A stretch of DNA of 56,721 nucleotides from IMG/VR virus record IMGVR_UViG_3300027819_000014, positions 1 through 56,721 of that record. The stretch is one strand, 5' to 3'. Positions 1,545 through 28,506 of the stretch are shown one piece after another (within the stretch, counting starts at the first letter, position 1; every line of letters starts with the position of its first letter). This DNA comes from a virus. Taxonomy: Duplodnaviria > Caudoviricetes. The position numbers and the translations under genes were made by a program. The notes under the pieces are model-generated. The model was not told the DNA's origin and searched no databases. It was given only the letters and a program-made list of their open reading frames with translations.

Positions 1545-3169
1545 GCTGTAACTTCCTCTTCATCAATTAGGGACTCATCCCCGGTGAGTATTGCCGCAAG
1601 TAGATTCTTACCTTCACGGTGATACTGGAGCAGCTTCTCTTCAATTGTACCTTTAGCTACAATGTCGTAGATCAGTACGTGGCTTTCCTTCTGTCCGGGA
1701 CGACGCACTCGCCGTTCAGCCTGCGTGCGGGTGATTGGATCTTCGGGGCTTTCAAAGTAGATTTCGATATTACAGACAGATTGTGGATTGATCGCTTCGC
1801 TACCCACCTGAGTATTGGCGATCAATCCTTGACAGTCTTTATCCACCATAAACCGATGGAATTCACCGGCAACGTCTTTCATACCGCCCCGGATTTCCGC
1901 ATATCCAACCTTCAATTCTGTGAGCAGTTCGGCGATCATCTGCCCCGAGTAACGGAAGTGATGGTACACGATGAACTTGCGTCCCGCGATGCGGTCTTCA
2001 ACCAGTGTCCGCAATGCCTCCAGTTTGGGGTTATTCTTCACCCGGAACTGGATACGTTCGGCGGATACATCATCCTCCTCAGGCTTCAAGGACAAGAATC
2101 CGGACGCGCACTGCCGCATCCGTATATAGACAGAATCCAGCGAGTGGTAGTCGCCACGCTTCTCTTTTATTTTCGCCACAATCCGTGTGTAATACTCTAG
2201 ACCCTCTTCGGTAAGAGTCACGTTCTTGCGGAGGCTGATCCGGCGTGGTAACTCAGTAAGCTCTTCCGAAGTGTAGCTGAGGGAGCGGTGTTTAATGGTA
2301 CGGTGCAGCAATTCTGTTTGCTCAGGACGAAACTTGTAATCCACCCCACCCCAGTAGTTGGGTTTGCCATCGAAGAACACCGCCCGGAACATGCCCATGG
2401 TCTCACCCAACGTGGCTCCGTGATCGATCAGTTTGAACTGTGGCCAGAGCGTCTCCGGATTGCGGCCGAAAGGGGTGCCGGTCAGTCCGTAGCGGAACGG
2501 ACAGCGCCAACTGAGCCAACTCAACATCTTGAATAACAGTGAGTCGTGTCGTTTGATCCGATGGATCTCATCGAGAATTAAGAAATCGAAGTTCTCAACA
2601 AAACTCACGGCGGAATCTTCGTTCAACACTCGGTGTTTCTTACTAGGTTGCTTTTTCTTCTTAACCATATCCGCCATATAGACCTGAAGTCCACCATGGT
2701 TGATTAAGAACATATCTGCCTTGCGATTCAATAAGGCAAAGCGTTCCTCTTTGGATCCGGTCAGGACGCACAGCTTCAGGTCGGGTGCGTTGTCATTAAT
2801 CTGCTCGATCCACGTGGTCATGTGGATGCTTTCCGGCACTACAATCAACGCACAGGAAGCCTCTCCACGCAACCGACGATAGCGGAACAGGTCGTACATC
2901 AGTCCAGTTTTGCCCCCACCCATGTCGTAATAAAACAAGAAGTCTGGTCGCGTTTCCGCCCCGACCATAAATCCGGCCATCTGGTGTATCCACGGATCTC
3001 TACAGAAACGATATCCAAGTGTACGAATTTCCGCAGCGAGTTCCTCCTTCGGCACGGACTTCATGAAGTCGAAATTGTCCAGAGGGCGTTCGGCGTACGC
3101 CTGCAACGCGGCGGGCGCAATTATCGGTAGCCGAACCTGCCTACGTGGCCGACGGGTCTTCTTGACCAT
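1541..3169 (-). CDS. SF2 (SNF2-like) helicase
   Basis: DMGGGKT, LILDEIH, LTGTP, QAERRVRRPGQ motifs. Confidence 0.9.
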   Translation of the reverse strand: MVKKTRRPRRQVRLPIIAPAALQAYAERPLDNFDFMKSVPKEELAAEIRTLGYRFCRDPWIHQMAGFMVGAETRPDFLFYYDMGGGKTGLMYDLFRYRRLRGEASCALIVVPESIHMTTWIEQINDNAPDLKLCVLTGSKEERFALLNRKADMFLINHGGLQVYMADMVKKKKQPSKKHRVLNEDSAVSFVENFDFLILDEIHRIKRHDSLLFKMLSWLSWRCPFRYGLTGTPFGRNPETLWPQFKLIDHGATLGETMGMFRAVFFDGKPNYWGGVDYKFRPEQTELLHRTIKHRSLSYTSEELTELPRRISLRKNVTLTEEGLEYYTRIVAKIKEKRGDYHSLDSVYIRMRQCASGFLSLKPEEDDVSAERIQFRVKNNPKLEALRTLVEDRIAGRKFIVYHHFRYSGQMIAELLTELKVGYAEIRGGMKDVAGEFHRFMVDKDCQGLIANTQVGSEAINPQSVCNIEIYFESPEDPITRTQAERRVRRPGQKESHVLIYDIVAKGTIEEKLLQYHREGKNLLAAILTGDESLIDEEEVTA

Positions 3170-5705
3170 CTTCTTCCTGACGTAAGTCGCGGTGACTGCG
3201 GCTGATCAACGATTCAAGATGTGAATCGTACGTGCTTGGCAGCAGCGCAGCGGATAAAGAGAACTGCCCGATCTTGTAGGCTTGGGTGATCAGCGTCACA
3301 AATCGATCGTCCTCGCCCACCCGCGTGTTAGAGGCGTAAATACGAGCTAGACCCAACTCCCGCTCCGTGGAGGTTTGCGAGTATGTTAACACGGTGTCCG
3401 CCGTGGCGATCTTTGAATAGTCTTCGGCGGTGTGTGCATCAGTGAGCAGCTTCGCGGTCGACCCCGCCCGGTTGGACTGCGTCGCGGTGGCACAGATCAA
3501 GTTGCGCTCCACGGCAATGCCACGCAGTTCCTTGAAAATGCTGCCGAGTTCCAATCTGTAATTGTCGGTGCCGAGCTTCATCAGGTCGGGGTAATCGATG
3601 ATCAGCACGTCAGGTGTGAAATGTTGTGCTCGTTCTAACAGATCGAGATAGTTGCGTAACTGCTGAATGGTCAAACCTCCGGTGGGGAAGGCTTTCACCA
3701 CTAAGCGGTCTTTGGCGTTGAAGCGTTGCAGCTTGCCGGAGAGGATCTTGCGTGCTCCGGTATCCCGGAAAGCGGGCACGTTCCGTAGAATCTCTCGATC
3801 TAGCAACTCCACCCGACCTAAACTATCCAACCGCAGCCGGGTGATGTTGACCTGAGCCTTTGTACGCTGAATACTGAACAGACTTTGCAGATACCGCTGA
3901 ACGATCAGTCGCTCGGATATCTCCAGTGTGATGTGCACCACATTCAACCGACGCAGCAACGCCTGTTTACCGATATGTATTAATTCCCACGAATTGTGGG
4001 CAACCATATCTGAGACGATAAAGTTTTCGTGTTCAGGTACAGTTAAATCAAACGTCTCGCGTTCGCCAACGTCTTCAATCTTGACAACTTGATCAAACAA
4101 AAAGTCATCAGTCCAGCTTCGGCAGCCATAAAGACTACGTGTTCCACGTCCGTGATCATCTTCAAGTAAAGGCTTTAATCGTTTGGCTATTGTCATCTTT
4201 TTACCGGTGAAACCAATTCGGGTAATGTATCTAAGAATATTTGTGCGGTCCTTTATGTGCACAGCACCGTAGCCTGGATATACTTTTCCCTGGAAGTGTC
4301 CAACACCGTAATGAAATTTGCCTACGACGCCAAGGCGTAATAGTAGGTGGTATACTTGTTCAGCCATTTTTGCACTTGCACTACTGTACTCGATTACGGC
4401 TGTTTTTCCGCTACCGTATATAGAACCATCACAGGAAAAAAGCGCGCGTAAAAATTCAGCAATCAATTCGTCTCGTAATTGAAAGACAAAGTCAGGGATT
4501 GTTTTTTCTTTTGACAGTTTATTGGCTAGACCAAGGCTTTCGAACCAGTCAGCCGTGTGGCAGCTATTGTGCCTATTCTTTTTACGGTAATTATTTACTA
4601 CGTAATACACTTCTCCATCACAACTGCGAGTAACTGAATCTCCAAAAGCCATCCGTATACACTTACAGAAATCTTTGGCTATAGTTCGATCACTTCCTTT
4701 AGAAAGCCACGGTCGTGGACCGTTCATGTGTCCATCGGCTAACACATACCCGAGCACTCGTAATTTGCATGGATCTTCTTTCTTCTGCCCAAGATTTACT
4801 AGGTTTCTGGGAACGGCAATGCGATCAACTTTCGGGCGAAGTTCGTCAACAGGAATCCAGACGTGCTTTTCTGTAAAGTACAAGTGTTCTTTTGTGGTAA
4901 CGATTCGCCGTCCGGTTTTTGTTGTCAGTCGAACACAGGGCTTTTTTCCATTTGTCCAGTGCTCAGTTACGGAGGTGACCTTCATCTGGCCACTCTCTGG
5001 ATCCATTGCAAGCACACGCTTATCTTTATCGCGGACTACGTCAGCAATTCGTTTCTGCTTACCGTTAGGCAAAAGCACAAGTTCATCAGCCGCAATACAC
5101 TTGCCTCTCTTGGGAGGTGCGATGAACAAATGCAACTCTCCACGGGCTGGCCCCAATTGGGCATCATCCAAGGGCTTTATCCCTAATGGTAGTAATCCAC
5201 TACGGGTTTCCTCATTCAGCCGATCCAGCCCCTCGATCAGCCGCAGTCCAGGGGTGAAGGACGACACCTGCGTACGCAACGCAGTGTTCAGCGCGGTCTT
5301 AGCTTCTTCCAGATTACCCGCCTGTACCGCCTCAGATGCTCGGACAATCCCAGTACGCAAGGCTTGATCGCTGACAAAGGTGTTGAGTTGGGAGATGACG
5401 AAATCCTCGTTCACCGTGTCCCGCAGATCGGCGATCTGTTCCGCGAGTTCCGCATAGACTTCCGGTGGGGTGCTGCGGTCGGAGCCGTCCTCGACTAATT
5501 CCTCAATCAGATCCACCGTATGTGTTAACGGTGGGCAACGGAACGTGTCCAGGTACGTGTAGATGCGCTCCACCAATCGGCGTTGCCCTGCGGCCGCAAA
5601 CATCCGTGGGGTCACCGCGTTGCGTATCAGCGCGGAAGCGTTTGTTGAATAACAGAGTAGCGTGAGGATCTGGAGTTGCAGCGGGATGGGGAATTCGCCG
5701 TTCAT
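3141..5705 (-). CDS. Replicative DnaB-like helicase containing an intein
   Basis: APPKRGK|S Walker A interrupted by the intein; HITLE, IIDYPD, ATQSNR. Confidence 0.92.
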   Translation of the reverse strand: MNGEFPIPLQLQILTLLCYSTNASALIRNAVTPRMFAAAGQRRLVERIYTYLDTFRCPPLTHTVDLIEELVEDGSDRSTPPEVYAELAEQIADLRDTVNEDFVISQLNTFVSDQALRTGIVRASEAVQAGNLEEAKTALNTALRTQVSSFTPGLRLIEGLDRLNEETRSGLLPLGIKPLDDAQLGPARGELHLFIAPPKRGKCIAADELVLLPNGKQKRIADVVRDKDKRVLAMDPESGQMKVTSVTEHWTNGKKPCVRLTTKTGRRIVTTKEHLYFTEKHVWIPVDELRPKVDRIAVPRNLVNLGQKKEDPCKLRVLGYVLADGHMNGPRPWLSKGSDRTIAKDFCKCIRMAFGDSVTRSCDGEVYYVVNNYRKKNRHNSCHTADWFESLGLANKLSKEKTIPDFVFQLRDELIAEFLRALFSCDGSIYGSGKTAVIEYSSASAKMAEQVYHLLLRLGVVGKFHYGVGHFQGKVYPGYGAVHIKDRTNILRYITRIGFTGKKMTIAKRLKPLLEDDHGRGTRSLYGCRSWTDDFLFDQVVKIEDVGERETFDLTVPEHENFIVSDMVAHNSWELIHIGKQALLRRLNVVHITLEISERLIVQRYLQSLFSIQRTKAQVNITRLRLDSLGRVELLDREILRNVPAFRDTGARKILSGKLQRFNAKDRLVVKAFPTGGLTIQQLRNYLDLLERAQHFTPDVLIIDYPDLMKLGTDNYRLELGSIFKELRGIAVERNLICATATQSNRAGSTAKLLTDAHTAEDYSKIATADTVLTYSQTSTERELGLARIYASNTRVGEDDRFVTLITQAYKIGQFSLSAALLPSTYDSHLESLISRSHRDLRQEEDGQEDPSAT
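3993..5099 (-). mobile_element. Intein (369 aa) with LAGLIDADG homing endonuclease, in the helicase P-loop
   Basis: Starts CIAADELV, block B TTKEH, LGYVLADG and FLRALFSCDG, ends FDLTV..NFI..VAHN/S. Confidence 0.93.
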
Positions 5706-6295: not shown

Positions 6296-6325
6296 GGGAA
6301 TCTCAATCGCTAATATCGGGAGAGG

Positions 6326-6370
6326 AAAAAGGGTCCGGACCTAGACTTCTTGTTGACAGCTAGGTCCGGA
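6326..6370 (-). terminator. Intrinsic terminator-like hairpin in the replication operon leader
   Basis: 11-bp perfect stem TCCGGACCTAG (6334-6344)/CTAGGTCCGGA (6360-6370), followed by CCCTTTTT on the minus strand. Confidence 0.6.
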
Positions 6371-6375
6371 TTTCC

Positions 6376-6486
6376 TCAGTCTGTGTGTGCTTTACGTTCG
6401 CCGACCGCGATGGGGAAAGGAACAAACCCGTCGTAAGGCAGACTGAGAAACTGGGGTGTAAGGAGATGAGGTATTAAGCGAGACAT
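6376..6486 (-). CDS. Possible 36-aa leader peptide
   Basis: AAAGGA 5 nt before ATG; MSRLIPHLLTPQFLSLPYDGFVPFPIAVGERKAHTD*; ends just before the terminator. Confidence 0.35.
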   Translation of the reverse strand: MSRLIPHLLTPQFLSLPYDGFVPFPIAVGERKAHTD

Positions 6487-6542
6487 GACGATCCTTTCGA
6501 GGAAAGTAGTGTTACACAGTCAGCGATACAGCACACGGAAAA

Positions 6543-6572
6543 ATTATACCGTGCAAAATTTGCGGAAGTAAA
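6543..6572 (-). promoter_or_regulatory. Sigma70-like promoter of the replication operon
   Basis: TTTACT-N18-TATAAT; same flanks as the promoter at 26374-26403. Confidence 0.7.
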
Positions 6573-6604
6573 GTTCTTTTTATTAGGGGTGAAATTTGTC
6601 ACGT

Positions 6605-6633
6605 TTTCAAGGGGGTTAGCTTAGGGGTATAAT
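6605..6633 (+). promoter_or_regulatory. Sigma70-like promoter of rep
   Basis: TTTCAA-N17-TATAAT; RBS AAAGGA before ATG 6668. Confidence 0.6.
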
Positions 6634-6667
6634 TTCTAGGGTAGACTTTTAATAAAGGAAAGACATC

Positions 6668-7675
6668 ATGCCACACGCGAACTCTGTTAGCGGTTACGGG
6701 CCACCAACTATGGGTGAAGATGACAAAGAAAAACTAACTCGTGATTTTAATTTGCAATTTGCAGGAAAAGCACCAAGTAAAGCTGATAAAAAGCCACAAG
6801 CAGAAATTAAACCCCGTACCGCTCCTAATACTCACCTAGAGCTTGCACCAAAACGGGCCGGTGTGATTTCAAACAAAGTATACACTATTGCTAAGGGTAA
6901 TACACCGCTGGGTGTCCCAGCAACAGCCGCGATTGGACTACAGATTCCAATGAGCTATCGCATATACGCATTGTTAATCTCACAAATACGTCCAACTAAA
7001 GACTTAAGTTTTGCCGAATTCACAGTCCATAAAAATGCACTGTGGCAAGCGATTGGTGCTGATCCGTACCCTTCACTTGAAGAAGTGGAACGGGTTATGA
7101 CCAACTTAGCTGGTGGTGTTTTTGTTGTAAGTGATGAACGTAAGTTTGCTGTAATGTCATATATGCAATACTGCAAATTTGATCGAACAACAGGACTGTG
7201 TCAGCTTCGATTTAATCCAGAAGTATCACCATATCTTCGCCTTGATGAGCCGCGTGATTACCGTAAAATACACTTTCAATCTGTCTGTAGATTGTGGTCC
7301 GCGTACAGTGCTGAGCTGTACATGTTCTTAAGGCGATTTGTTGGGCGTGACTACTCACCTACGCCGACTAATAAGGAGCGAACAAAAATTACGCACGAAG
7401 TGTCCTATAGCACACTTAGAATGATTTTGCAGGTAGATGATCGGCATTACGCTAGGCACTGGTCTGAATTTAATCACGACGTTTTACGGCCAGCTATAGC
7501 CGATATAAATAAGTATACCGAATTAATAGTTAAATACACCGTTAAGCGAAGTCTTAAAGCACAAAAGCGGGGGCCAGTACATTCTATCTGCTTTAGTGTT
7601 ACAGAAAATAAACGTATGATTAGTGATCTTGGTAAGCGAAAACGCGCTAAAGCTATACCTGATCTGTATGCATAG
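6668..7675 (+). CDS. Plasmid-type replication initiator (Rep_3/RepB family)
   Basis: LRFNPEVSPYL, YSAELYMFL, LRMIL..Y..WSEFNHDVLRPAIADINKYT typical of Rep_3 winged-helix domains; adjacent iterons. Confidence 0.85.
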   Translation: MPHANSVSGYGPPTMGEDDKEKLTRDFNLQFAGKAPSKADKKPQAEIKPRTAPNTHLELAPKRAGVISNKVYTIAKGNTPLGVPATAAIGLQIPMSYRIYALLISQIRPTKDLSFAEFTVHKNALWQAIGADPYPSLEEVERVMTNLAGGVFVVSDERKFAVMSYMQYCKFDRTTGLCQLRFNPEVSPYLRLDEPRDYRKIHFQSVCRLWSAYSAELYMFLRRFVGRDYSPTPTNKERTKITHEVSYSTLRMILQVDDRHYARHWSEFNHDVLRPAIADINKYTELIVKYTVKRSLKAQKRGPVHSICFSVTENKRMISDLGKRKRAKAIPDLYA

Positions 7676-12499: not shown

Positions 12500-13258
12500 T
12501 TAACCAATTGATAAGAGTGCCGGGTTAAGTACTGTACCTTTCTCGTTAGCTTTCTCTCCCTCGGTGCCAATTTGGGTTTTCAAGTTATGCCATCTGCGTA
12601 ATTGCTCTCCATGTTTCCAGCAGTTGGCTAAGGTCGCAACTGCACAGCCATACATGAACCCGGTGATGCCTTCCAGGTCGGCTATCTGTGAAGTGTCATC
12701 GGCGACTTCTTCAAGCGTTTTCCCGAGAGACATCTCAAGTTGCATTAATCGTGCCCACCGTTCTGAATATGTGATTACTGCCCCGCCGTAGCCATCTGAG
12801 TTTTTATTCTTGAGTTCTTGCCAACGTATTTCATCGGACAGTTCAATGTTGGCGGCACCGATCAGTTTATTTTCAATGGCAGTTTGTTTGATGTTGGCTT
12901 CTCGATCGATTTCCGCATAGCGTTCTCGACGTTTCCGTTCGTTCTCAGCCTCGATCCGGTTATCGTTTGCTATCTCTTCCGCCGTAAGAATCGGATTAGG
13001 ACTTGGCCCAACAGCACTGTTGGTGTACCCGCTCAAAGCGCGGGACCAGTCACGATAGATTAAGTCTGGGTTAGAATCTTGATTTACGGTTATCGTGACG
13101 CCGTTAAAATCAAATTGTATGTCTGCGTCAAGATTATTAGCCAGTGTGATGGCCTCGGAGATTGTGGTTGTGACGCTTGATCCTATCAATGTTTCGATAC
13201 TGAATAAAACATTTCTGATCTTTTTCGGCTTGCCGTAGAAAGATGTGAATCTGTTCAT
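12500..13258 (-). CDS. Hypothetical protein
   Basis: 252 aa; RBS AAGGAG. Confidence 0.8.
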   Translation of the reverse strand: MNRFTSFYGKPKKIRNVLFSIETLIGSSVTTTISEAITLANNLDADIQFDFNGVTITVNQDSNPDLIYRDWSRALSGYTNSAVGPSPNPILTAEEIANDNRIEAENERKRRERYAEIDREANIKQTAIENKLIGAANIELSDEIRWQELKNKNSDGYGGAVITYSERWARLMQLEMSLGKTLEEVADDTSQIADLEGITGFMYGCAVATLANCWKHGEQLRRWHNLKTQIGTEGEKANEKGTVLNPALLSIG

Positions 13259-14751: not shown

Positions 14752-15110
14752 TTCGGTTTTCCTTTCCTAAGTATTTCTCGGTACTTGTGTGCTGCTTTTA
14801 TTGTTTTCTTGGCAGACGGAGCACTGATATTTCCGGTACGCATGATTTTGTATAGTGCGTCATACAACGCACATCCGAACCAACCCATTGCCGTAATAGC
14901 CATGTCGTATTCGTAATTGGCGGTGCTGAGCGCTTCACGTTTCTTGGTTGCATCTGGATCGTGCTGCCGGCAATAGTGCTTGCCGTCCTTGGCAACGATA
15001 GACCATTTACGTTTACATTGGTGCGATCCTCTGTACCAACCGTTACTGTAGGTATCTACCTTTTTGGAGCATTTGGTCGGATCTAGAGTTGGTGTGGATT
15101 TGGTTTTCAT
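14748..15110 (-). CDS. Hypothetical protein with C-C-C-H zinc motif
   Basis: C..HQC..YCRQH; start at ATGA overlap. Confidence 0.65.
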   Translation of the reverse strand: MKTKSTPTLDPTKCSKKVDTYSNGWYRGSHQCKRKWSIVAKDGKHYCRQHDPDATKKREALSTANYEYDMAITAMGWFGCALYDALYKIMRTGNISAPSAKKTIKAAHKYREILRKGKPK

Positions 15111-15550
15111 GATATCTCCTGAGATTGTTTTAATTCGTCGCGGACTTTCATCAGTAATTTGCCGAGTTTGTTTTGACCGACGCCGTTGCATACGCCCCAG
15201 TAAGTGTCATACCAGTAGTTATGCTCGATCAATTCTTGTTCTCCCGTTTCCAGAAGTAATTTGGCCAATCCTGGATTTGAGAATTTGATCCGAAGAATAT
15301 CGAGCATGATCGTGTCTTTCACCTGCTCCCAGTCTTTTCGTAAAGGTAAGCTGCGGGCACGGTGTTTGGCTTGTCCCGGCGTAGCACATGCCGTAACCCA
15401 ATCGTGGTGTGTTTGATTGGTCATTTTAGCGGCTTGGTAGGCGTGTTCTGCTGTCAAGTACCATCGCCCGTTGTACAGCAGGCGGGATGTGTGGAAGTTG
15501 CTGAGGAAGGCCCAGTGGCCTACAAAGGCGGGTGCGGTTGGCATCATCAT
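15107..15550 (-). CDS. NADAR (YbiA-like) family protein
   Basis: FLSNF, TAEHAYQAAK, KFS..L..LL.TG, DTYWG, GQNKLGKLLMKVRD; RBS AAGGA before 15550. Confidence 0.92.
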   Translation of the reverse strand: MMMPTAPAFVGHWAFLSNFHTSRLLYNGRWYLTAEHAYQAAKMTNQTHHDWVTACATPGQAKHRARSLPLRKDWEQVKDTIMLDILRIKFSNPGLAKLLLETGEQELIEHNYWYDTYWGVCNGVGQNKLGKLLMKVRDELKQSQEIS

Positions 15551-15559
15551 TTCCTTTAT

Positions 15560-15804
15560 AAAAATAAAGCCGTTTTCGATCCACCGAGACGGTGCTCGGA
15601 GCGCTATCAGCCTCCCGGCCAAGGTGCGCACGACCCTCATATTATTGATTTCAACCTGCCATTCGTAGCCTGCGCATTTCCTTGCTAGGCACTCTATGGT
15701 CAACTTGTATAGCTCATTCACGCCGGACGCTTACGTTCCGCGTCACATCAGTGTCGCTACTGTCCGAGGGCAGATTTACCACCGGCCTCGGCTCCGGTGA
15801 GGTC
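15560..15804 (-). ncRNA. Putative structured intergenic RNA
   Basis: Nested stems 15798-15804/15632-15639, 15769-15776/15653-15660, 15756-15760/15665-15669, 15740-15744/15726-15730. Confidence 0.4.
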
Positions 15805-23931: not shown

Positions 23932-24171
23932 TTACAGCAGATGGTACTTGCGGGCGAAGGCTTCCAGTGCTGCTCGGGAAGTGAACCCGGCTTTCTCGGC
24001 GATAAGGGTGGCGAGGGTACGTCGCGAGTGCACTCGTATCGGGGAGTCGATGACTTGGTAGCCGTGTGATTCTAGCAAAGCCCGTTGTTCGTCTTCAGCT
24101 TTGTCCAGAGTCTGTAGTGCCTTGATCGCACGGCGGACAGCGACCTTGGTGGTATGGGAAAGATTAGCCAT
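23932..24171 (-). CDS. Hypothetical protein, paralog B
   Basis: 67/79 aa identical to 19403..19642. Confidence 0.85.
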   Translation of the reverse strand: MANLSHTTKVAVRRAIKALQTLDKAEDEQRALLESHGYQVIDSPIRVHSRRTLATLIAEKAGFTSRAALEAFARKYHLL

Positions 24172-24397
24172 TTATACCACCACTTTTCTTGGCAAGGTCA
24201 ATCAGATGTGCGTCGATCTCGGCCACTGCGGAGTTGCTGAGGGCTTTGACAAAGCCTAAATGCCGAAGCATCATGATGAACAGATCACGTTGGTCACTCG
24301 GCGACAAATCTTTTGGTTCGAAGATGACGCGGATGCCTGACATCATGCCGGTGGTTTCTACTCTCATGAAAGATTCCTTTATGGTTGTGATGGACAA
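24164..24397 (-). CDS. Hypothetical protein
   Basis: Operon packing; start uncertain. Confidence 0.6.
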   Translation of the reverse strand: MSITTIKESFMRVETTGMMSGIRVIFEPKDLSPSDQRDLFIMMLRHLGFVKALSNSAVAEIDAHLIDLAKKSGGING

Positions 24398-24464
24398 AAC
24401 GCTACTGTCCCCACAAGCGAACTCCCTTCACTGCAGAATTCGCTTGGAGAACCGATTGCGCAAC

Positions 24465-25418
24465 TTACGCAGCCGACACCTTGATGAACTTGTGGTCAGT
24501 GTCCCAACTGATGTCGGACGCCGTGCCCCCGGCTTTCAGGAAGTCGGCGACGGTTTTTGCCGCTTTGTACAGCGAGAACCGTTTGTGGGAATCCGACCCG
24601 GCACGCTTCGGATTTTCTTTCACCAAGAGGGTGATCTTTCGGGTGTCGGCGGCGACGACGGTGGTTTTCTTTGCGGCTGCGGTTTTCTTGCTGGATTTCT
24701 TGGTACTCATAGTGGCGTTTCCTTTGTCGTTGTGTTGCGGGTTATTACTGCGGGTAGTTTCCAGATTGCTCTGGCGTTGCGCTCGGGCTGCTTTCAGGCG
24801 TTCAGCGGCGGCGGCTCGGGCTTGTTGCTCGGCTTCGGAAAGCTCCGGTATGGGCTTCCCGAGGATACGACACAGTTCACAGGTTGCAGCGTACGTCCGG
24901 ACGATCAGCGAGTCAAACAATTTCTGTGCTGCTTTCTTAAGATCGTACGGTTGCGTGGCGTCGTCTTTGTTCATCACCGGGTGCAGATCGGTGGTGCTGG
25001 TGGTTTCCTGATCGATCAGGATTCCGGTGCTCGGGTCACGGCGCGGGAGATCGTGATTGAGTTTGATCACCTGCATTTCTTCATCCCGCACGGTGAGGTA
25101 CCGATTGTGTCCGCTCTTCTCTTCCAGGAGTAGAAAGGTACGGTGATGACAATCCTGGAAGACGTACGGTTTGATCACTGGGATTTCTGGTGCTTTCCGT
25201 ACCATTACTCGGAGTTTGGCGTTGGAAGCTTTTCCGGCACGTTTCGCTGCCCGTGCGATGATTGCATGGTCGGCGTCGATGTCGGCAGCGGTCTTTTTTG
25301 GTTCCTTTGCCACTTTACCCTGAATGGCGTCGGAGTTGCGCTTCGCAGCTGCGTTGGCTTCTTTTGCAGACATCTTCTTGGGCGGCGGCAGCTTTTTGAT
25401 CACTTTCGGTTTGGCCAT
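24465..25418 (-). CDS. Lys/Ala-rich basic protein with probable internal in-frame start at 24710 (81-aa DNA-binding-like product)
   Basis: RBS before MAKPK; leader motif CACAACGACAAAGGA before internal MSTKKSSKK..NPKRAGS..RFSLY..DISWD. Confidence 0.75.
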   Translation of the reverse strand: MAKPKVIKKLPPPKKMSAKEANAAAKRNSDAIQGKVAKEPKKTAADIDADHAIIARAAKRAGKASNAKLRVMVRKAPEIPVIKPYVFQDCHHRTFLLLEEKSGHNRYLTVRDEEMQVIKLNHDLPRRDPSTGILIDQETTSTTDLHPVMNKDDATQPYDLKKAAQKLFDSLIVRTYAATCELCRILGKPIPELSEAEQQARAAAAERLKAARAQRQSNLETTRSNNPQHNDKGNATMSTKKSSKKTAAAKKTTVVAADTRKITLLVKENPKRAGSDSHKRFSLYKAAKTVADFLKAGGTASDISWDTDHKFIKVSAA

Positions 25419-25431
25419 GTGATTTTTCCTG

Positions 25432-25602
25432 TTAGTGGAGTGGGACAATGAAACCGTTGAACTGAGCAGCTACACGCTCTGCGGCTTCAACGGATTTGAA
25501 CACTTGTTGAAACGGCACGCCTCGGACGGTGGCGTACACTTTGGCCACGGCGCGACGGTAACGGGTTTTGGTGCAGCGGTTGAAGGTGGGTTGGATATTC
25601 AT
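25432..25602 (-). CDS. First gene of the early operon (56 aa; not in ORF track)
   Basis: CACAACGATAAAGGA leader; MNIQPTFNRCTKTRYRRAVAKVYATVRGVPFQQVFKSVEAAERVAAQFNGFIVPLH*. Confidence 0.7.
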   Translation of the reverse strand: MNIQPTFNRCTKTRYRRAVAKVYATVRGVPFQQVFKSVEAAERVAAQFNGFIVPLH

Positions 25603-25629
25603 GGTCGGTGATCCTTTATCGTTGTGGGT

Positions 25630-25659
25630 AAAAATGAATCACGGTGTGGAATGTGATTC
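25630..25659 (-). terminator. Terminator-like hairpin at the 3' end of the long leader
   Basis: GAATCAC/GTGATTC stem followed by ATTTTT on the minus strand. Confidence 0.5.
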
Positions 25660-26368
25660 CCTACAGCCGACTTCCTTTCCGTATTCACCGTCGGTCAGAC
25701 GTGTTGTTTCGGGAAGAGGGCTGCGGGAAAACATTCTTTAGGCGTTACTACATCTGCACATAATTATGTGCGTCACCGGATCAGCATCAACCTGGCGCTA
25801 CGTGGACGGAATTTATGGATCACTCACACTGATCTCACGTTCTATCACGGCTACCACAGGCTGCGTATCACGGACTCCATCGATTTGGATTAGGGAGTTG
25901 CAACCGTAAGGCGCGGCGACATAATTCACAGGGAGCAACAGTGGTGTCGCTGGGTGCGCTCCGTAGTGTTATCGGTTTCTCCGCGTCATCTGCGGCATCC
26001 CTACTGACATCTTCGGTCTGAGCACTCAGCACCTACGCTGAGCTAATTTTGTGTTGTATGAATATGGCACCGTACCAGCCGACCTAATTAAAGTGTCAGC
26101 GTCAAGACGGTTCGCATTTTGGTGGGGGGAACGGATTTCATCCCACTCAGTTTGGTTCGGTTGAACGCTTCAGCCGGTAAGGGCTTACTGCTTGTCGGTG
26201 ACCGCATCACGCGGGACCTATCAACACGGAAACTGAGTCCGGTTATTTATCGTCACCCTGAACTAGCGGAGAGGTCGGTGGCCTAACGAGTACTGGAGCT
26301 TGACTTTCTGCCCCGGAAGACCACCGATCCTCCGGGGGGTTGACCAGAATCACATCCTCGTTACTATG
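25630..26368 (-). ncRNA. ~740-nt structured non-coding RNA / leader
   Basis: No ORF of 60 aa or more; bounded by promoter and terminator; many nested stems with minus-strand G-U pairs. Confidence 0.6.
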
Positions 26369-26373
26369 CCGAA

Positions 26374-26403
26374 ATTATACTGCCGACATGTGCAATAAGT
26401 AAA
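26374..26403 (-). promoter_or_regulatory. Sigma70-like early promoter
   Basis: TTTACT-N18-TATAAT. Confidence 0.7.
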
Positions 26404-26467
26404 GTATTAAATCACGAGCTAATTACCCTAATTAAATCAATGGCTTGCAAGTGCCATAAATTCATCC

Positions 26468-26497
26468 TTTACGAGCTTACTTTTGCAGGGGTAAGAT
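26468..26497 (+). promoter_or_regulatory. Putative promoter of the packaging operon
   Basis: TTTACG-N18-TAAGAT upstream of terS. Confidence 0.45.
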
Positions 26498-26557
26498 TGG
26501 ACCCGGTGCCGGGGTAGACGATAGGGTAATAAATCATTATGGCGAAATTAGTTCAGT

Positions 26558-27082
26558 ATGAGTAACGCATCATCCGCATCCCGTTCCACTCCACGCATTA
26601 AGTTGCGTGGTAATGGACATTCCGCTCCACCGCAGCAACAGAAGAATAATTCCACTGCTGTATCACTCAGTACTAAACCTTCCAGACCCATTCTGCGTAA
26701 CGGTAATAGACTCATGAAGGGTACGGGTCCGTTACCCGGTGCGGGTGCACCTAAAGGTAGTCAGAATTATCGTAACGGTCGGCTGGTGAAGAATGCTTTT
26801 ATGGCTGAGTTGGCCAAAGTGTTCAAGTTGAAATCACGAGCCAATACTGTAGCGGGCTTGGAGGCGATCGCAGGGAAGGTGATTAAGTTAGCTCGAGCGG
26901 GCAGTATCCCTGCTGCCAGAGAAGTGTTTGATCGGATAGAGGGTAAACCAGCACAGATGATCATCGGTGATCCAGACAACCCAGTATTTTTCAAGGCTGT
27001 GGCGGAGATGTCAGATTCTGAACTAGAGCAAATCGCTAGAGGCTATACCGTGAATGGTGAAGCAACACGTGTTGATGAATAG
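26558..27082 (+). CDS. terS: Terminase small subunit
   Basis: GAPKGSQN motif, A..G.IPAAREVFDRIEGKP, MSDSELE; upstream of terL. Confidence 0.75.
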   Translation: MSNASSASRSTPRIKLRGNGHSAPPQQQKNNSTAVSLSTKPSRPILRNGNRLMKGTGPLPGAGAPKGSQNYRNGRLVKNAFMAELAKVFKLKSRANTVAGLEAIAGKVIKLARAGSIPAAREVFDRIEGKPAQMIIGDPDNPVFFKAVAEMSDSELEQIARGYTVNGEATRVDE

Positions 27083-27092
27083 GTGACTTTTT

Positions 27093-28013
27093 ATGAATTA
27101 TCAAAAACACTACGATCAACTTATTTTCCGGGCACGGCATCGGCATATTAGAGGGTATAAAGAGAAACACCACGTCATTCCCCGCTGTATGGGTGGTGAT
27201 AACTCTAAACGCAATATTGTCCGACTTACACCGGAAGAACATTTTGTTGCTCATCAGCTTCTTGTAAAAATGCACCCTGGTTGTCATAAACTTGCGTACG
27301 CTGCAGGGGTAATGGCTATTAGAGGTGGTGCAAATAAGATATACGGTTGGCTTCGTAGAGCAATGGTTGGAAATACTCTTTCGGATGCAGGTAGGGCTAA
27401 GGTGTCAGCCGCAAGGAAGGGAAAGAAGTTATCTCCAGAGCACTGTAAAAAGCTTTCTGACTCACATAAAGGAAAAACAAATTCTCCGGAGGCCTGTGAA
27501 AAGATATCAAAGGCTTTGACGGGTAAAAAGCGTTCACCAGAAGCTTGTGCTGCTATTTCGGCGGGAAGCAAAGGGAAAACACTATCTCCAGAACACTGCG
27601 AAAAGATATCCAAGTTGAAGAAGGGTACACATCATTCGCCTGAGACGTGTGCTCGGATCTCTAAGGGTGGACGTGGTCTGAAGCGTTCACCAGAAACGTG
27701 TGCACGAATATCTGCTGCGCGTAGGCTTCGGCCGTCACCAATGTTGGGTCGGCACCATTCTCCGGAAGGAAAAGCCAATATATCTGCTGGACGTACGGGT
27801 AAGGGTTTGGGTTGGAAACATACTCCTGAGATGATAGCATATATGTCAGCAGTAAATAAACAACAGGCCATTTGGGTTGGTAAGAAGCATACAGAAGAGA
27901 CAAAAGTTAAGATGGTGAAGTCGGCATTAAAGCGATGGTACGGTGACGGTTGGGAAGCTGTAGCAGTAGCCCGTGGACATGTGATTAACGGTACGGCAGA
28001 AAGGGTGGATTAA
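27093..28013 (+). CDS. HNH homing endonuclease with NUMOD3 repeats
   Basis: EKHHVIPRCMGG.N...N.V.LTPEEHFVAH; about eight 17-aa SPExCxxISxxxKG repeats. Confidence 0.9.
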   Translation: MNYQKHYDQLIFRARHRHIRGYKEKHHVIPRCMGGDNSKRNIVRLTPEEHFVAHQLLVKMHPGCHKLAYAAGVMAIRGGANKIYGWLRRAMVGNTLSDAGRAKVSAARKGKKLSPEHCKKLSDSHKGKTNSPEACEKISKALTGKKRSPEACAAISAGSKGKTLSPEHCEKISKLKKGTHHSPETCARISKGGRGLKRSPETCARISAARRLRPSPMLGRHHSPEGKANISAGRTGKGLGWKHTPEMIAYMSAVNKQQAIWVGKKHTEETKVKMVKSALKRWYGDGWEAVAVARGHVINGTAERVD

Positions 28014-28017
28014 TATT

Positions 28018-28506
28018 ATGCGTACAACTATCCGGGAACTGAGTCAGAAGGGTAAATCACTTCAACGTCGTGTAGCCAAATTAGCTGATGATTCTGATGG
28101 TGTGTGGCGTACAGTTAGAGGTCGGCGAATATTTATTGGTAAAGGTGAAAGTTTTGATGACGCGTTGAAGAAAAGTTTGGGTGGTAAAAAGTCTGGGGTA
28201 TCCCGTGATGATAAAAAGCAACAAGACGTAGAGGCTAAACATAAACCAGAAGATAGCCGAAAGTGGGAGTCAGCGCGCAAACCCGGTGAACATAAATCGG
28301 GTGATCCAATCCCGATGGATGAGCGTAAAGCATTCGGTAAAGGTTTGAAGGTTGGAGATACCTTTGATCATGGAATACACGGTAGTTTAGCTGGAAAATG
28401 GAAGGTCACCTCCAGGGACGGCGATTATTTAAAGATTCGTAATACAAAGACCGGGAAGGTTGAAGATATCCATGACAGTAATGCTTCTCCGGCCTTTTAT
28501 AAGTAA
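28018..28506 (+). CDS. Putative head-cargo protein 1 (GVWRTxxGR motif + beta-barrel-like tail)
   Basis: N-terminus paralogous to 34392..34826. Confidence 0.7.
   Translation: MRTTIRELSQKGKSLQRRVAKLADDSDGVWRTVRGRRIFIGKGESFDDALKKSLGGKKSGVSRDDKKQQDVEAKHKPEDSRKWESARKPGEHKSGDPIPMDERKAFGKGLKVGDTFDHGIHGSLAGKWKVTSRDGDYLKIRNTKTGKVEDIHDSNASPAFYK

What the first reader, a model, noticed from the sequence alone, without database searches (positions are those of the whole stretch)
25630..26368. ~740-nt structured leader RNA with a long-range terminator/antiterminator pairing
Seen: an ORF-free stretch between a near-consensus promoter and a terminator hairpin, ahead of the 18-kb early operon. Stems: 26357-26363/26284-26290; 26326-26337/26311-26322 (12 bp, two G-U); 26272-26278/26079-26085 enclosing 26230-26238/26145-26153; 26037-26043/26024-26030; 25945-25950/25916-25921; 25719-25728/25658-25668. 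The wobble pairs I checked favour the minus strand. The 5' segment GGAUGUGAUUCU (26357-26346) can form 12 bp with GGAAUCACAUUC (25660-25649), which contains the first arm of the terminator, so the two pairings are mutually exclusive. Inference: a large phage ncRNA (size class of GOLLD/ROOL, though I recognise neither) or a giant attenuator gating lytic entry.
Basis: partly seen in the sequence, partly recalled or inferred. Interest (0 to 1): 0.85.

Follow-up and report, generated by a model that had tools for sequence, protein, structure and literature searches.

The report
Conserved structured phage early-operon leader RNA
The gene-free stretch ahead of this uncultured phage's early genes encodes a large folded RNA, also present in two related phages and matching no catalogued RNA family, but the proposed long-distance on/off pairing is not conserved.

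Summary
Window 25603-26368 (minus strand) has no conserved ORF. It lies between a promoter kept in three phages (TTTACT-17/18-TATAAT/TATTAT) and the ribosome-binding site of the first early gene. Two homologous leaders were found: L005, about 680 nt, and L003, about 430 nt.

Between window and L005 the first 300 leader columns are 91% identical. That compares with 81% for terL DNA, 64% for terS DNA and 60% for the DNA upstream of the promoter.

Compensatory changes support a 5' domain of three nested helices plus a loop-to-tail pseudoknot (27 pairs, 81/81 cells paired, 7 double changes). They also support several central helices, a hairpin, and the apical stem of a long 3' hairpin (E1), whose main stem is almost invariant. 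Only the minus strand folds better than shuffles (z -3.9 against -0.6). Rfam gives no match, so it is neither GOLLD nor ROOL.

The 12-bp 5'-3' pairing is 12/12 in the window, 11/12 in L005 and 9/12 in L003. The "terminator" is weak (-7 to -10 kcal/mol) and loses to E1 (-30 to -37).

My reading is a new multi-domain cis-acting leader whose 3' domain gates the ribosome-binding site. Its function is untested.

The parts
26374..26403 (-). Early promoter: -35 TTTACT at 26403-26398, 18-nt spacer, -10 TATAAT at 26379-26374. The inferred start is near A26367.
   Evidence: 10/12. The same hexamers are in L005 and L003. A second copy of this promoter type lies at 6572-6543. The start site is inferred from spacing only.
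26272..26368 (-). 5' pseudoknotted domain. P1 is 26363-26357/26290-26284. P2 is 26347-26344/26296-26293. P3 is 26337-26329/26319-26311. The pseudoknot pairs the P3 loop (26326-26320) with 26282-26276. An invariant internal loop (CAGAAAGUCAAGCU) lies between the 3' strands of P3 and P2.
   Evidence: 27 pairs, 81/81 cells paired, 7 pairs changed on both sides (0 of 500 shuffles reach this; slid controls give 0-1). Every helix has at least one double change. Searches give the alignments. Model R1 finds only this copy in the window.
25792..26271 (-). Central domain, variable in length: full in window and L005, mostly absent from L003. Helices with compensatory changes between window and L005 are 26213-26211/26205-26203, 25863-25852/25800-25788 and 25834-25830/25822-25818. 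Motif GGGAUGAAAUCC (26144-26133) is shared by all three leaders. A stretch of about 100 nt, roughly 26065-25960, is largely missing in L005.
   Evidence: 12 compensatory pairs against 4.1 +/- 1.6 in column shuffles, and energy -163.9 against -91.9 +/- 7.7. One search gives the three-way alignment. One search shows a low-depth relative that covers 26010-26126.
25756..25771 (-). Hairpin D: GCACAU/AUGUGC, preceded by the invariant GGUGAC.
   Evidence: 6 pairs, 2 changed on both sides in L003, 100% of cells paired.
25649..25736 (-). Long interrupted hairpin E1. Its helices are 25736-25731/25654-25649, 25729-25719/25668-25657 and 25716-25713/25674-25671, with an apical stem at about 25704-25698/25692-25687.
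   Evidence: The main stem is 96.9% paired and almost invariant. The apical stem has 3 of 4 pairs changed on both sides. Free energies are -37.4/-30.3/-35.6 kcal/mol in window/L003/L005, z -5.4/-3.7/-3.0.
25629..25659 (-). It cannot form together with the base of E1.
   Evidence: -7.5/-10.1/-7.2 kcal/mol. The terminator scan does not call it. The stem is invariant, and the U run is short in L003.
25600..25628 (-). Invariant CCACAACGAUA(A/G)AGGAU with the Shine-Dalgarno AAGGA (25616-25612) and the ATG (25602-25600). GGAUCAC (25614-25608) is complementary to GUGAUUC (25642-25636).
   Evidence: One search shows the invariance, even though the ORF that follows in L005 is unrelated. The minimum-energy folds of window and L003 pair GUGAUUC with the Shine-Dalgarno region. 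L005 forms a different, weaker pairing.
25432..25602 (-). First gene of the early operon (56 aa, basic N-terminal half, no family match). It is followed by a 327-aa gene at 24465-25448.
   Evidence: A homolog follows the leader in L003 but not in L005.

Best explanation
This is a new, conserved, multi-domain 5' leader RNA of the phage's roughly 18-kb early operon (replication and anti-defence genes). It is transcribed leftward from a sigma-70-type promoter and ends at the ribosome-binding site of the first gene.

Shown:
- It is non-coding, conserved above its surroundings, specific to the minus strand, and folded.
- The 5' domain is compact: P1-P2-P3 plus a pseudoknot between the P3 loop and the 3' tail, starting about 4 nt from the inferred transcript start.
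- The central domain is structured and variable in length.
- The 3' domain consists of hairpin D and the long hairpin E1.

Inferred mechanism:
- The 3' domain gates expression of the first gene or genes. The heptamer GUGAUUC can pair either with GAAUCAC, which is normally locked inside E1, or with the Shine-Dalgarno segment GGAUCAC.
- With E1 closed, which is the thermodynamic default, the ribosome-binding site is occluded.
- Opening or cleaving E1 would let GAAUCAC capture GUGAUUC and free the ribosome-binding site. A trans factor binding its invariant 5' strand could do this, as could a double-strand-specific nuclease such as RNase III.
- The 5' pseudoknot domain is most likely a 5'-end stabiliser or a docking or sensor module for RNA polymerase, a protein or a ligand.
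For: Homologs: L003 and L005 carry the same promoter, 5' domain and 3' domain.

Conservation between window and L005: 270/296 (91%) in the first 300 leader columns, against 1216/1500 for terL DNA, 311/489 for terS DNA and 93/154 upstream of the -35.

Covariation: 5' domain, 7 double changes, 81/81 cells paired, 0/500 shuffles. D plus E1, 5 double changes, 4/500. Window-L005 full length, 12 compensatory, 10 one-sided and 0 broken pairs, against 4.1 +/- 1.6 compensatory in 60 column shuffles. Structures predicted from one sequence and scored in the other give compensatory 6 against 2.15 and 8 against 2.2, and disruptive 25 against 37 and 42.

Folding z-scores are -3.86, -2.98 and -3.07 for the three leaders, and -0.58 for the window's plus strand.

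E1 is far more stable than the terminator-like hairpin. The Shine-Dalgarno region is paired in the minimum-energy folds of window and L003. The leader, including the Shine-Dalgarno sequence, is retained in L005 although the ORF that follows is unrelated, so the leader is a module that includes the translation start region.
Against: - There are only three full sequences, two of them close, plus one 117-nt fragment. The counts are therefore small and not phylogenetically independent.
- The consensus structures came from the same alignments, although the shuffle, slide and single-sequence controls address this.
- No RNA data exist (one search lists no RNA run), so the transcript ends, any processing and the on/off states are all unobserved.
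- The main stem of E1 and both heptamers are invariant, so the switch itself has no covariation support.
- In L005 the Shine-Dalgarno segment is GGAU-AC and the predicted occlusion uses a different, weak pairing.
- The trigger is unknown.
- Part of the invariance at the 5' end could instead reflect a promoter-like site on the opposite strand (TTGACC-16-TACTAT, 26340-26367).
Confidence: 0.5

Rival explanations
1. A stand-alone large non-coding RNA in the size class of GOLLD or ROOL. It would be released by termination or processing near 25630 and act in trans, for example as a scaffold or as a decoy against host defence. The downstream genes would be expressed by read-through.
For: It measures 430-770 nt, has several domains with covariation along its whole length, and is the most conserved DNA in the region. 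A hairpin plus U run sits at its 3' end in window and L005.
Against: The conserved block runs without a break through the Shine-Dalgarno sequence to within about 10 nt of the ATG. The 3' hairpin is weak, loses to E1, and has a poor U tract in L003. The central domain is dispensable in L003. There is no Rfam match.
Confidence: 0.2
2. The 5' pseudoknot domain is a cis-acting processive antitermination element. The nascent RNA would bind and modify the host RNA polymerase, as HK022 put does (recalled), so that it can transcribe the whole 18-kb operon.
For: It lies immediately downstream of the early promoter at the head of a very long operon. It is compact, with strongly conserved unpaired nucleotides.
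Against: The scan finds only one terminator-like site on the minus strand between 6500 and 26450, at chance level, so no need for antitermination is evident. The fold, a pseudoknot, differs from the two stem-loops recalled for put. No boxA-like site lies in the leader. Nothing tests polymerase binding.
Confidence: 0.15
3. One reading: a giant attenuator in which the 5' segment 26357-26346 pairs with 25660-25649 to prevent formation of an intrinsic terminator.
For: The complementarity is perfect in the window (12/12, -14.6 kcal/mol) and is the best upstream partner there. The window's minimum-energy fold includes this helix.
Against: The pairing is 11/12 (-7.9) in L005 and 9/12 (-3.7) in L003. 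It is not the best partner in either, and the changes are uncompensated. The segment lies in the variable joiner between P1 and P2 and overlaps both helices. The terminator is weak and is not called by the scan. E1 occupies the same 3' segment locally (-13.2/-13.5/-13.2 for its base in the three leaders, -30 to -37 for the whole hairpin).
Confidence: 0.08
4. A DNA-level element (packaging site, replication origin, overlapping divergent promoters) or a decayed gene, rather than an RNA.
For: It sits next to terS. A promoter-like site on the plus strand (26340-26367) has both hexamers invariant in all three phages.
Against: Double compensatory changes occur in helices whose arms lie up to 75 nt apart, and in a pseudoknot. 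The fold is strand-asymmetric and wobble pairs appear on the minus sense only. A frameshifting indel sits between two runs of invariant columns. No ORF is conserved.
Confidence: 0.05

Closest known systems
Phage lambda PL leader (nutL plus the RNase III-sensitive hairpin ahead of gene N). Recalled from the literature, not read here.
   Same: It is the first element after the early promoter and an untranslated structured leader ahead of a small basic first gene. A long hairpin next to the ribosome-binding site is thought to control translation of that gene.
   Different: No boxA-like sequence lies in the leader. The leader is 2-3 times longer, begins with a pseudoknotted domain, and shows no sequence similarity. 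RNase III cleavage here is only my inference.
HK022 put RNAs (cis-acting antiterminator RNAs). Recalled; search gave a listing only.
   Same: A conserved folded RNA made immediately downstream of an early phage promoter at the head of a long operon.
   Different: As recalled, put is about 70 nt with two stem-loops and no pseudoknot. Binding to RNA polymerase is untested here. The operon shows no excess of intrinsic terminators.
GOLLD and ROOL large ornate RNAs (Rfam families; the start of the abstract of bioRxiv 10.1101/2024.12.08.627333 was seen in the listing).
   Same: Size class, association with phages, and several structured domains.
   Different: No match to either model at the gathering threshold or at E up to 10. 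This RNA is contiguous with a ribosome-binding site. Its length varies from 430 to 770 nt through loss of a whole domain.
Riboswitch and attenuator leaders with mutually exclusive hairpins.
   Same: A shared heptamer can choose between two partners, one of which is the Shine-Dalgarno region. There is a compact, pseudoknotted, conserved 5' domain that looks like an aptamer.
   Different: The putative sensor and the expression platform lie 350-650 nt apart. No ligand or known aptamer class is indicated (no Rfam match). The terminator is weak.

Membership tests
GOLLD RNA (Rfam) | A match to the family covariance model at its gathering score. | tested here: not met
   cmscan of the whole window at gathering gave 0 matches. 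The 2-kb region at E up to 10 gave only two chance snoRNA matches. L003 and L005 at E up to 10 gave none.
ROOL RNA (Rfam) | A match to the family covariance model at its gathering score. | tested here: not met
   The same searches.
Intrinsic-terminator attenuator | A G+C-rich terminator stem with a short loop, followed by a conserved U tract. | tested here: not met
   The stem has 7 bp with 2 G-C pairs and a 7-10-nt loop. The scan does not call it. Free energies are -7.5/-10.1/-7.2 kcal/mol. The U run is UUU in L003.
Intrinsic-terminator attenuator | A conserved alternative (antiterminator) pairing that excludes the terminator. | tested here: inconclusive
A local alternative, E1, is conserved and excludes the hairpin, but it is so much more stable that the terminator would rarely form.
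Lambda-type nut site | A boxA-like sequence upstream of a boxB hairpin in the leader. | tested here: not met
   None of the 46 matches (up to 3 mismatches) to a recalled boxA consensus lies within 25600-26370, and the total count is at chance level. boxB was not tested.
HK022 put RNA | Two adjacent stem-loops that bind RNA polymerase and make it resistant to terminators. | not testable with these tools
   No family model was to hand. The fold found here is three nested helices plus a pseudoknot, which differs from the recalled put fold.
Small self-cleaving ribozymes (hammerhead, twister, pistol, hatchet, HDV-like) | A match to the Rfam models. | tested here: not met
   None matched inside the leader in any of the three sequences. 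A hammerhead-like match lies elsewhere in L003.
Protein-coding gene or pseudogene | A frame conserved across homologs. | tested here: not met
   No ORF exceeds 54 aa. A 1-nt indel lies between two runs of invariant columns. The uORF is 31 aa, 46 aa and 8 codons long in the three leaders.

The most novel reading that the evidence does not exclude
A previously undescribed class of large phage RNA. Its compact pseudoknotted 5' domain would be a true sensor or catalytic or polymerase-binding module: a new aptamer, ribozyme or put-like element. That module would communicate through the structured body with the switch at the ribosome-binding site, setting the timing of the whole early programme of replication and anti-defence genes.
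Probability: 0.25. Interest if true: 0.8.

Novelty: new variant of a known kind. Interest (0 to 1): 0.6.

Why it matters
Structured leaders at the head of phage early operons, such as lambda nut and HK022 put, are classic control points, but few are known. Very few are this large or contain a pseudoknot.

This one is a well-defined candidate for a new RNA family. It has a 97-nt 5' domain in which every helix, including the pseudoknot, is backed by compensatory change. It sits ahead of genes for replication (an intein-bearing DnaB, a primase, an SNF2 helicase) and anti-defence (a Tad4-like protein, NADAR).

The element is short enough to synthesise and to test in vitro or in a reporter without culturing the phage. 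Its narrow known distribution, three or four uncultured groundwater and other environmental phages, limits its general importance for now.

Tried and rejected
Known RNA families. Rfam at gathering on the whole window gave nothing. Rfam at E up to 10 on 25000-27000 and on L003 and L005 gave nothing credible in the leader. No tRNA or tmRNA was found.

Similarity searches with no result. blastn of the leader found nothing in phages, E. coli genomes or plasmids. tblastn of the 327-aa neighbour found nothing in phages.

Protein-based locus searches in viral contigs found nothing with the 327-aa protein, the ATPase, terS or alignment A2.

Pattern scans with nothing new. Chance hits in coding DNA were discarded: L004 and L006 (read) and L007 (read).

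Sequencing runs. No RNA holder was listed. X3 and X4 gave no cover of the leader. The low-depth relative in X1/X2 covers only 26010-26126. Its listed changes lie mostly in unpaired or window-specific sequence, so it adds little.

A second copy in the window. Model R1 with filters off found only the known copies.

Coding readings. I considered the small frames on both strands and the MFSRSPLP uORF and rejected them. The frames are not conserved, there is no Shine-Dalgarno sequence, and the AUG is paired inside E1.

Central motif to tail pairing. A possible pairing between the central motif GGG(A)UGAAAU and the U-rich tail ahead of the ribosome-binding site is the best partner in L003 (-13.4) and L005 (about -9.3 to -9.6), but not in the window (-7.1 against -9.4 elsewhere). 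I leave it as unexplained.

Supplements of papers were not consulted. For papers I saw only the listings and the starts of abstracts. Statements about lambda N and RNase III and about HK022 put are recalled.

Full report
Setting. The window is an uncultured-virus record that forms part of a 116,918-nt metagenome contig. Genes left of about 25600 run on the minus strand. They include a Toprim primase, an SNF2 helicase, an intein-bearing DnaB, a MoxR-type ATPase, a DUF2201/VWA protein, a Tad4-like protein, a NADAR protein and many unknowns. Genes right of 26558 run on the plus strand: terS, an HNH/NUMOD3 endonuclease, terL and so on. The finding lies in the divergent control region between the two arms.
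Noticed in passing
L003:2179-2240 (+): A type II hammerhead-like element in the intergenic space after the 268-aa gene of the related phage. It scores 29.2 bits (gathering score 37), E 2.4e-4 on the 201-nt stretch, with CUGACGA, CGAAAC and GUC all in place. No counterpart was found in window 24100-24600.
   Followed up: partly
window 26340-26367 (+): A promoter-like site, TTGACC-16-TACTAT, on the opposite strand inside the first 30 nt of the leader. Both hexamers and the 16-nt spacing are invariant in all three phages. It would fire rightward across the leftward promoter toward terS, which suggests mutually exclusive divergent promoters.
   Followed up: partly
window 6300-6640: A second divergent control region. 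TTTACT-18-TATAAT lies at 6572-6543 (-), followed by a short ORF starting near 6486 and a hairpin plus U run near 6360-6325. TTTTCA-18-TATAAT at 6604-6633 (+) lies ahead of a Rep3-type initiator gene (6668-7675).
   Followed up: partly
window 3141-5705 (-): A DnaB-like helicase interrupted by an intein with a LAGLIDADG endonuclease domain (Pfam Intein_splicing, LAGLIDADG_3, DnaB_C).
   Followed up: no
window 27093-28506 (+): An HNH/NUMOD3 homing endonuclease (27093-28013) and a 162-aa ORF sit between terS and terL. In L005, terS is directly followed by terL, so this looks like an insertion.
   Followed up: no
window 12500-13258 (-) and 15107-15721 (-): Early-operon genes with a Tad4 (Thoeris inhibitor) domain and a NADAR domain, which are probably anti-defence functions.
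   Followed up: no
window 26144-26133 and 25635-25624 (-): The central motif GGG(A)UGAAAUCC is kept in all three leaders. It is the best predicted partner of the U-rich tail ahead of the ribosome-binding site in L003 (-13.4) and L005 (about -9.5), but not in the window (-7.1). This may be a conserved long-range contact, and it remains unexplained.
   Followed up: partly
window 24533-24725, 24883-24994, 25443-25545, 26010-26126: Contigs of the source-sample runs include a low-depth (2.5-5x) diverged relative, about 82-93% identical over these pieces. At least two related phage strains therefore co-occur.
   Followed up: partly
L002 (parent contig): The 56.7-kb virus record is a piece of a 116,918-nt metagenome contig. 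This agrees with the 49% completeness estimate.
   Followed up: no
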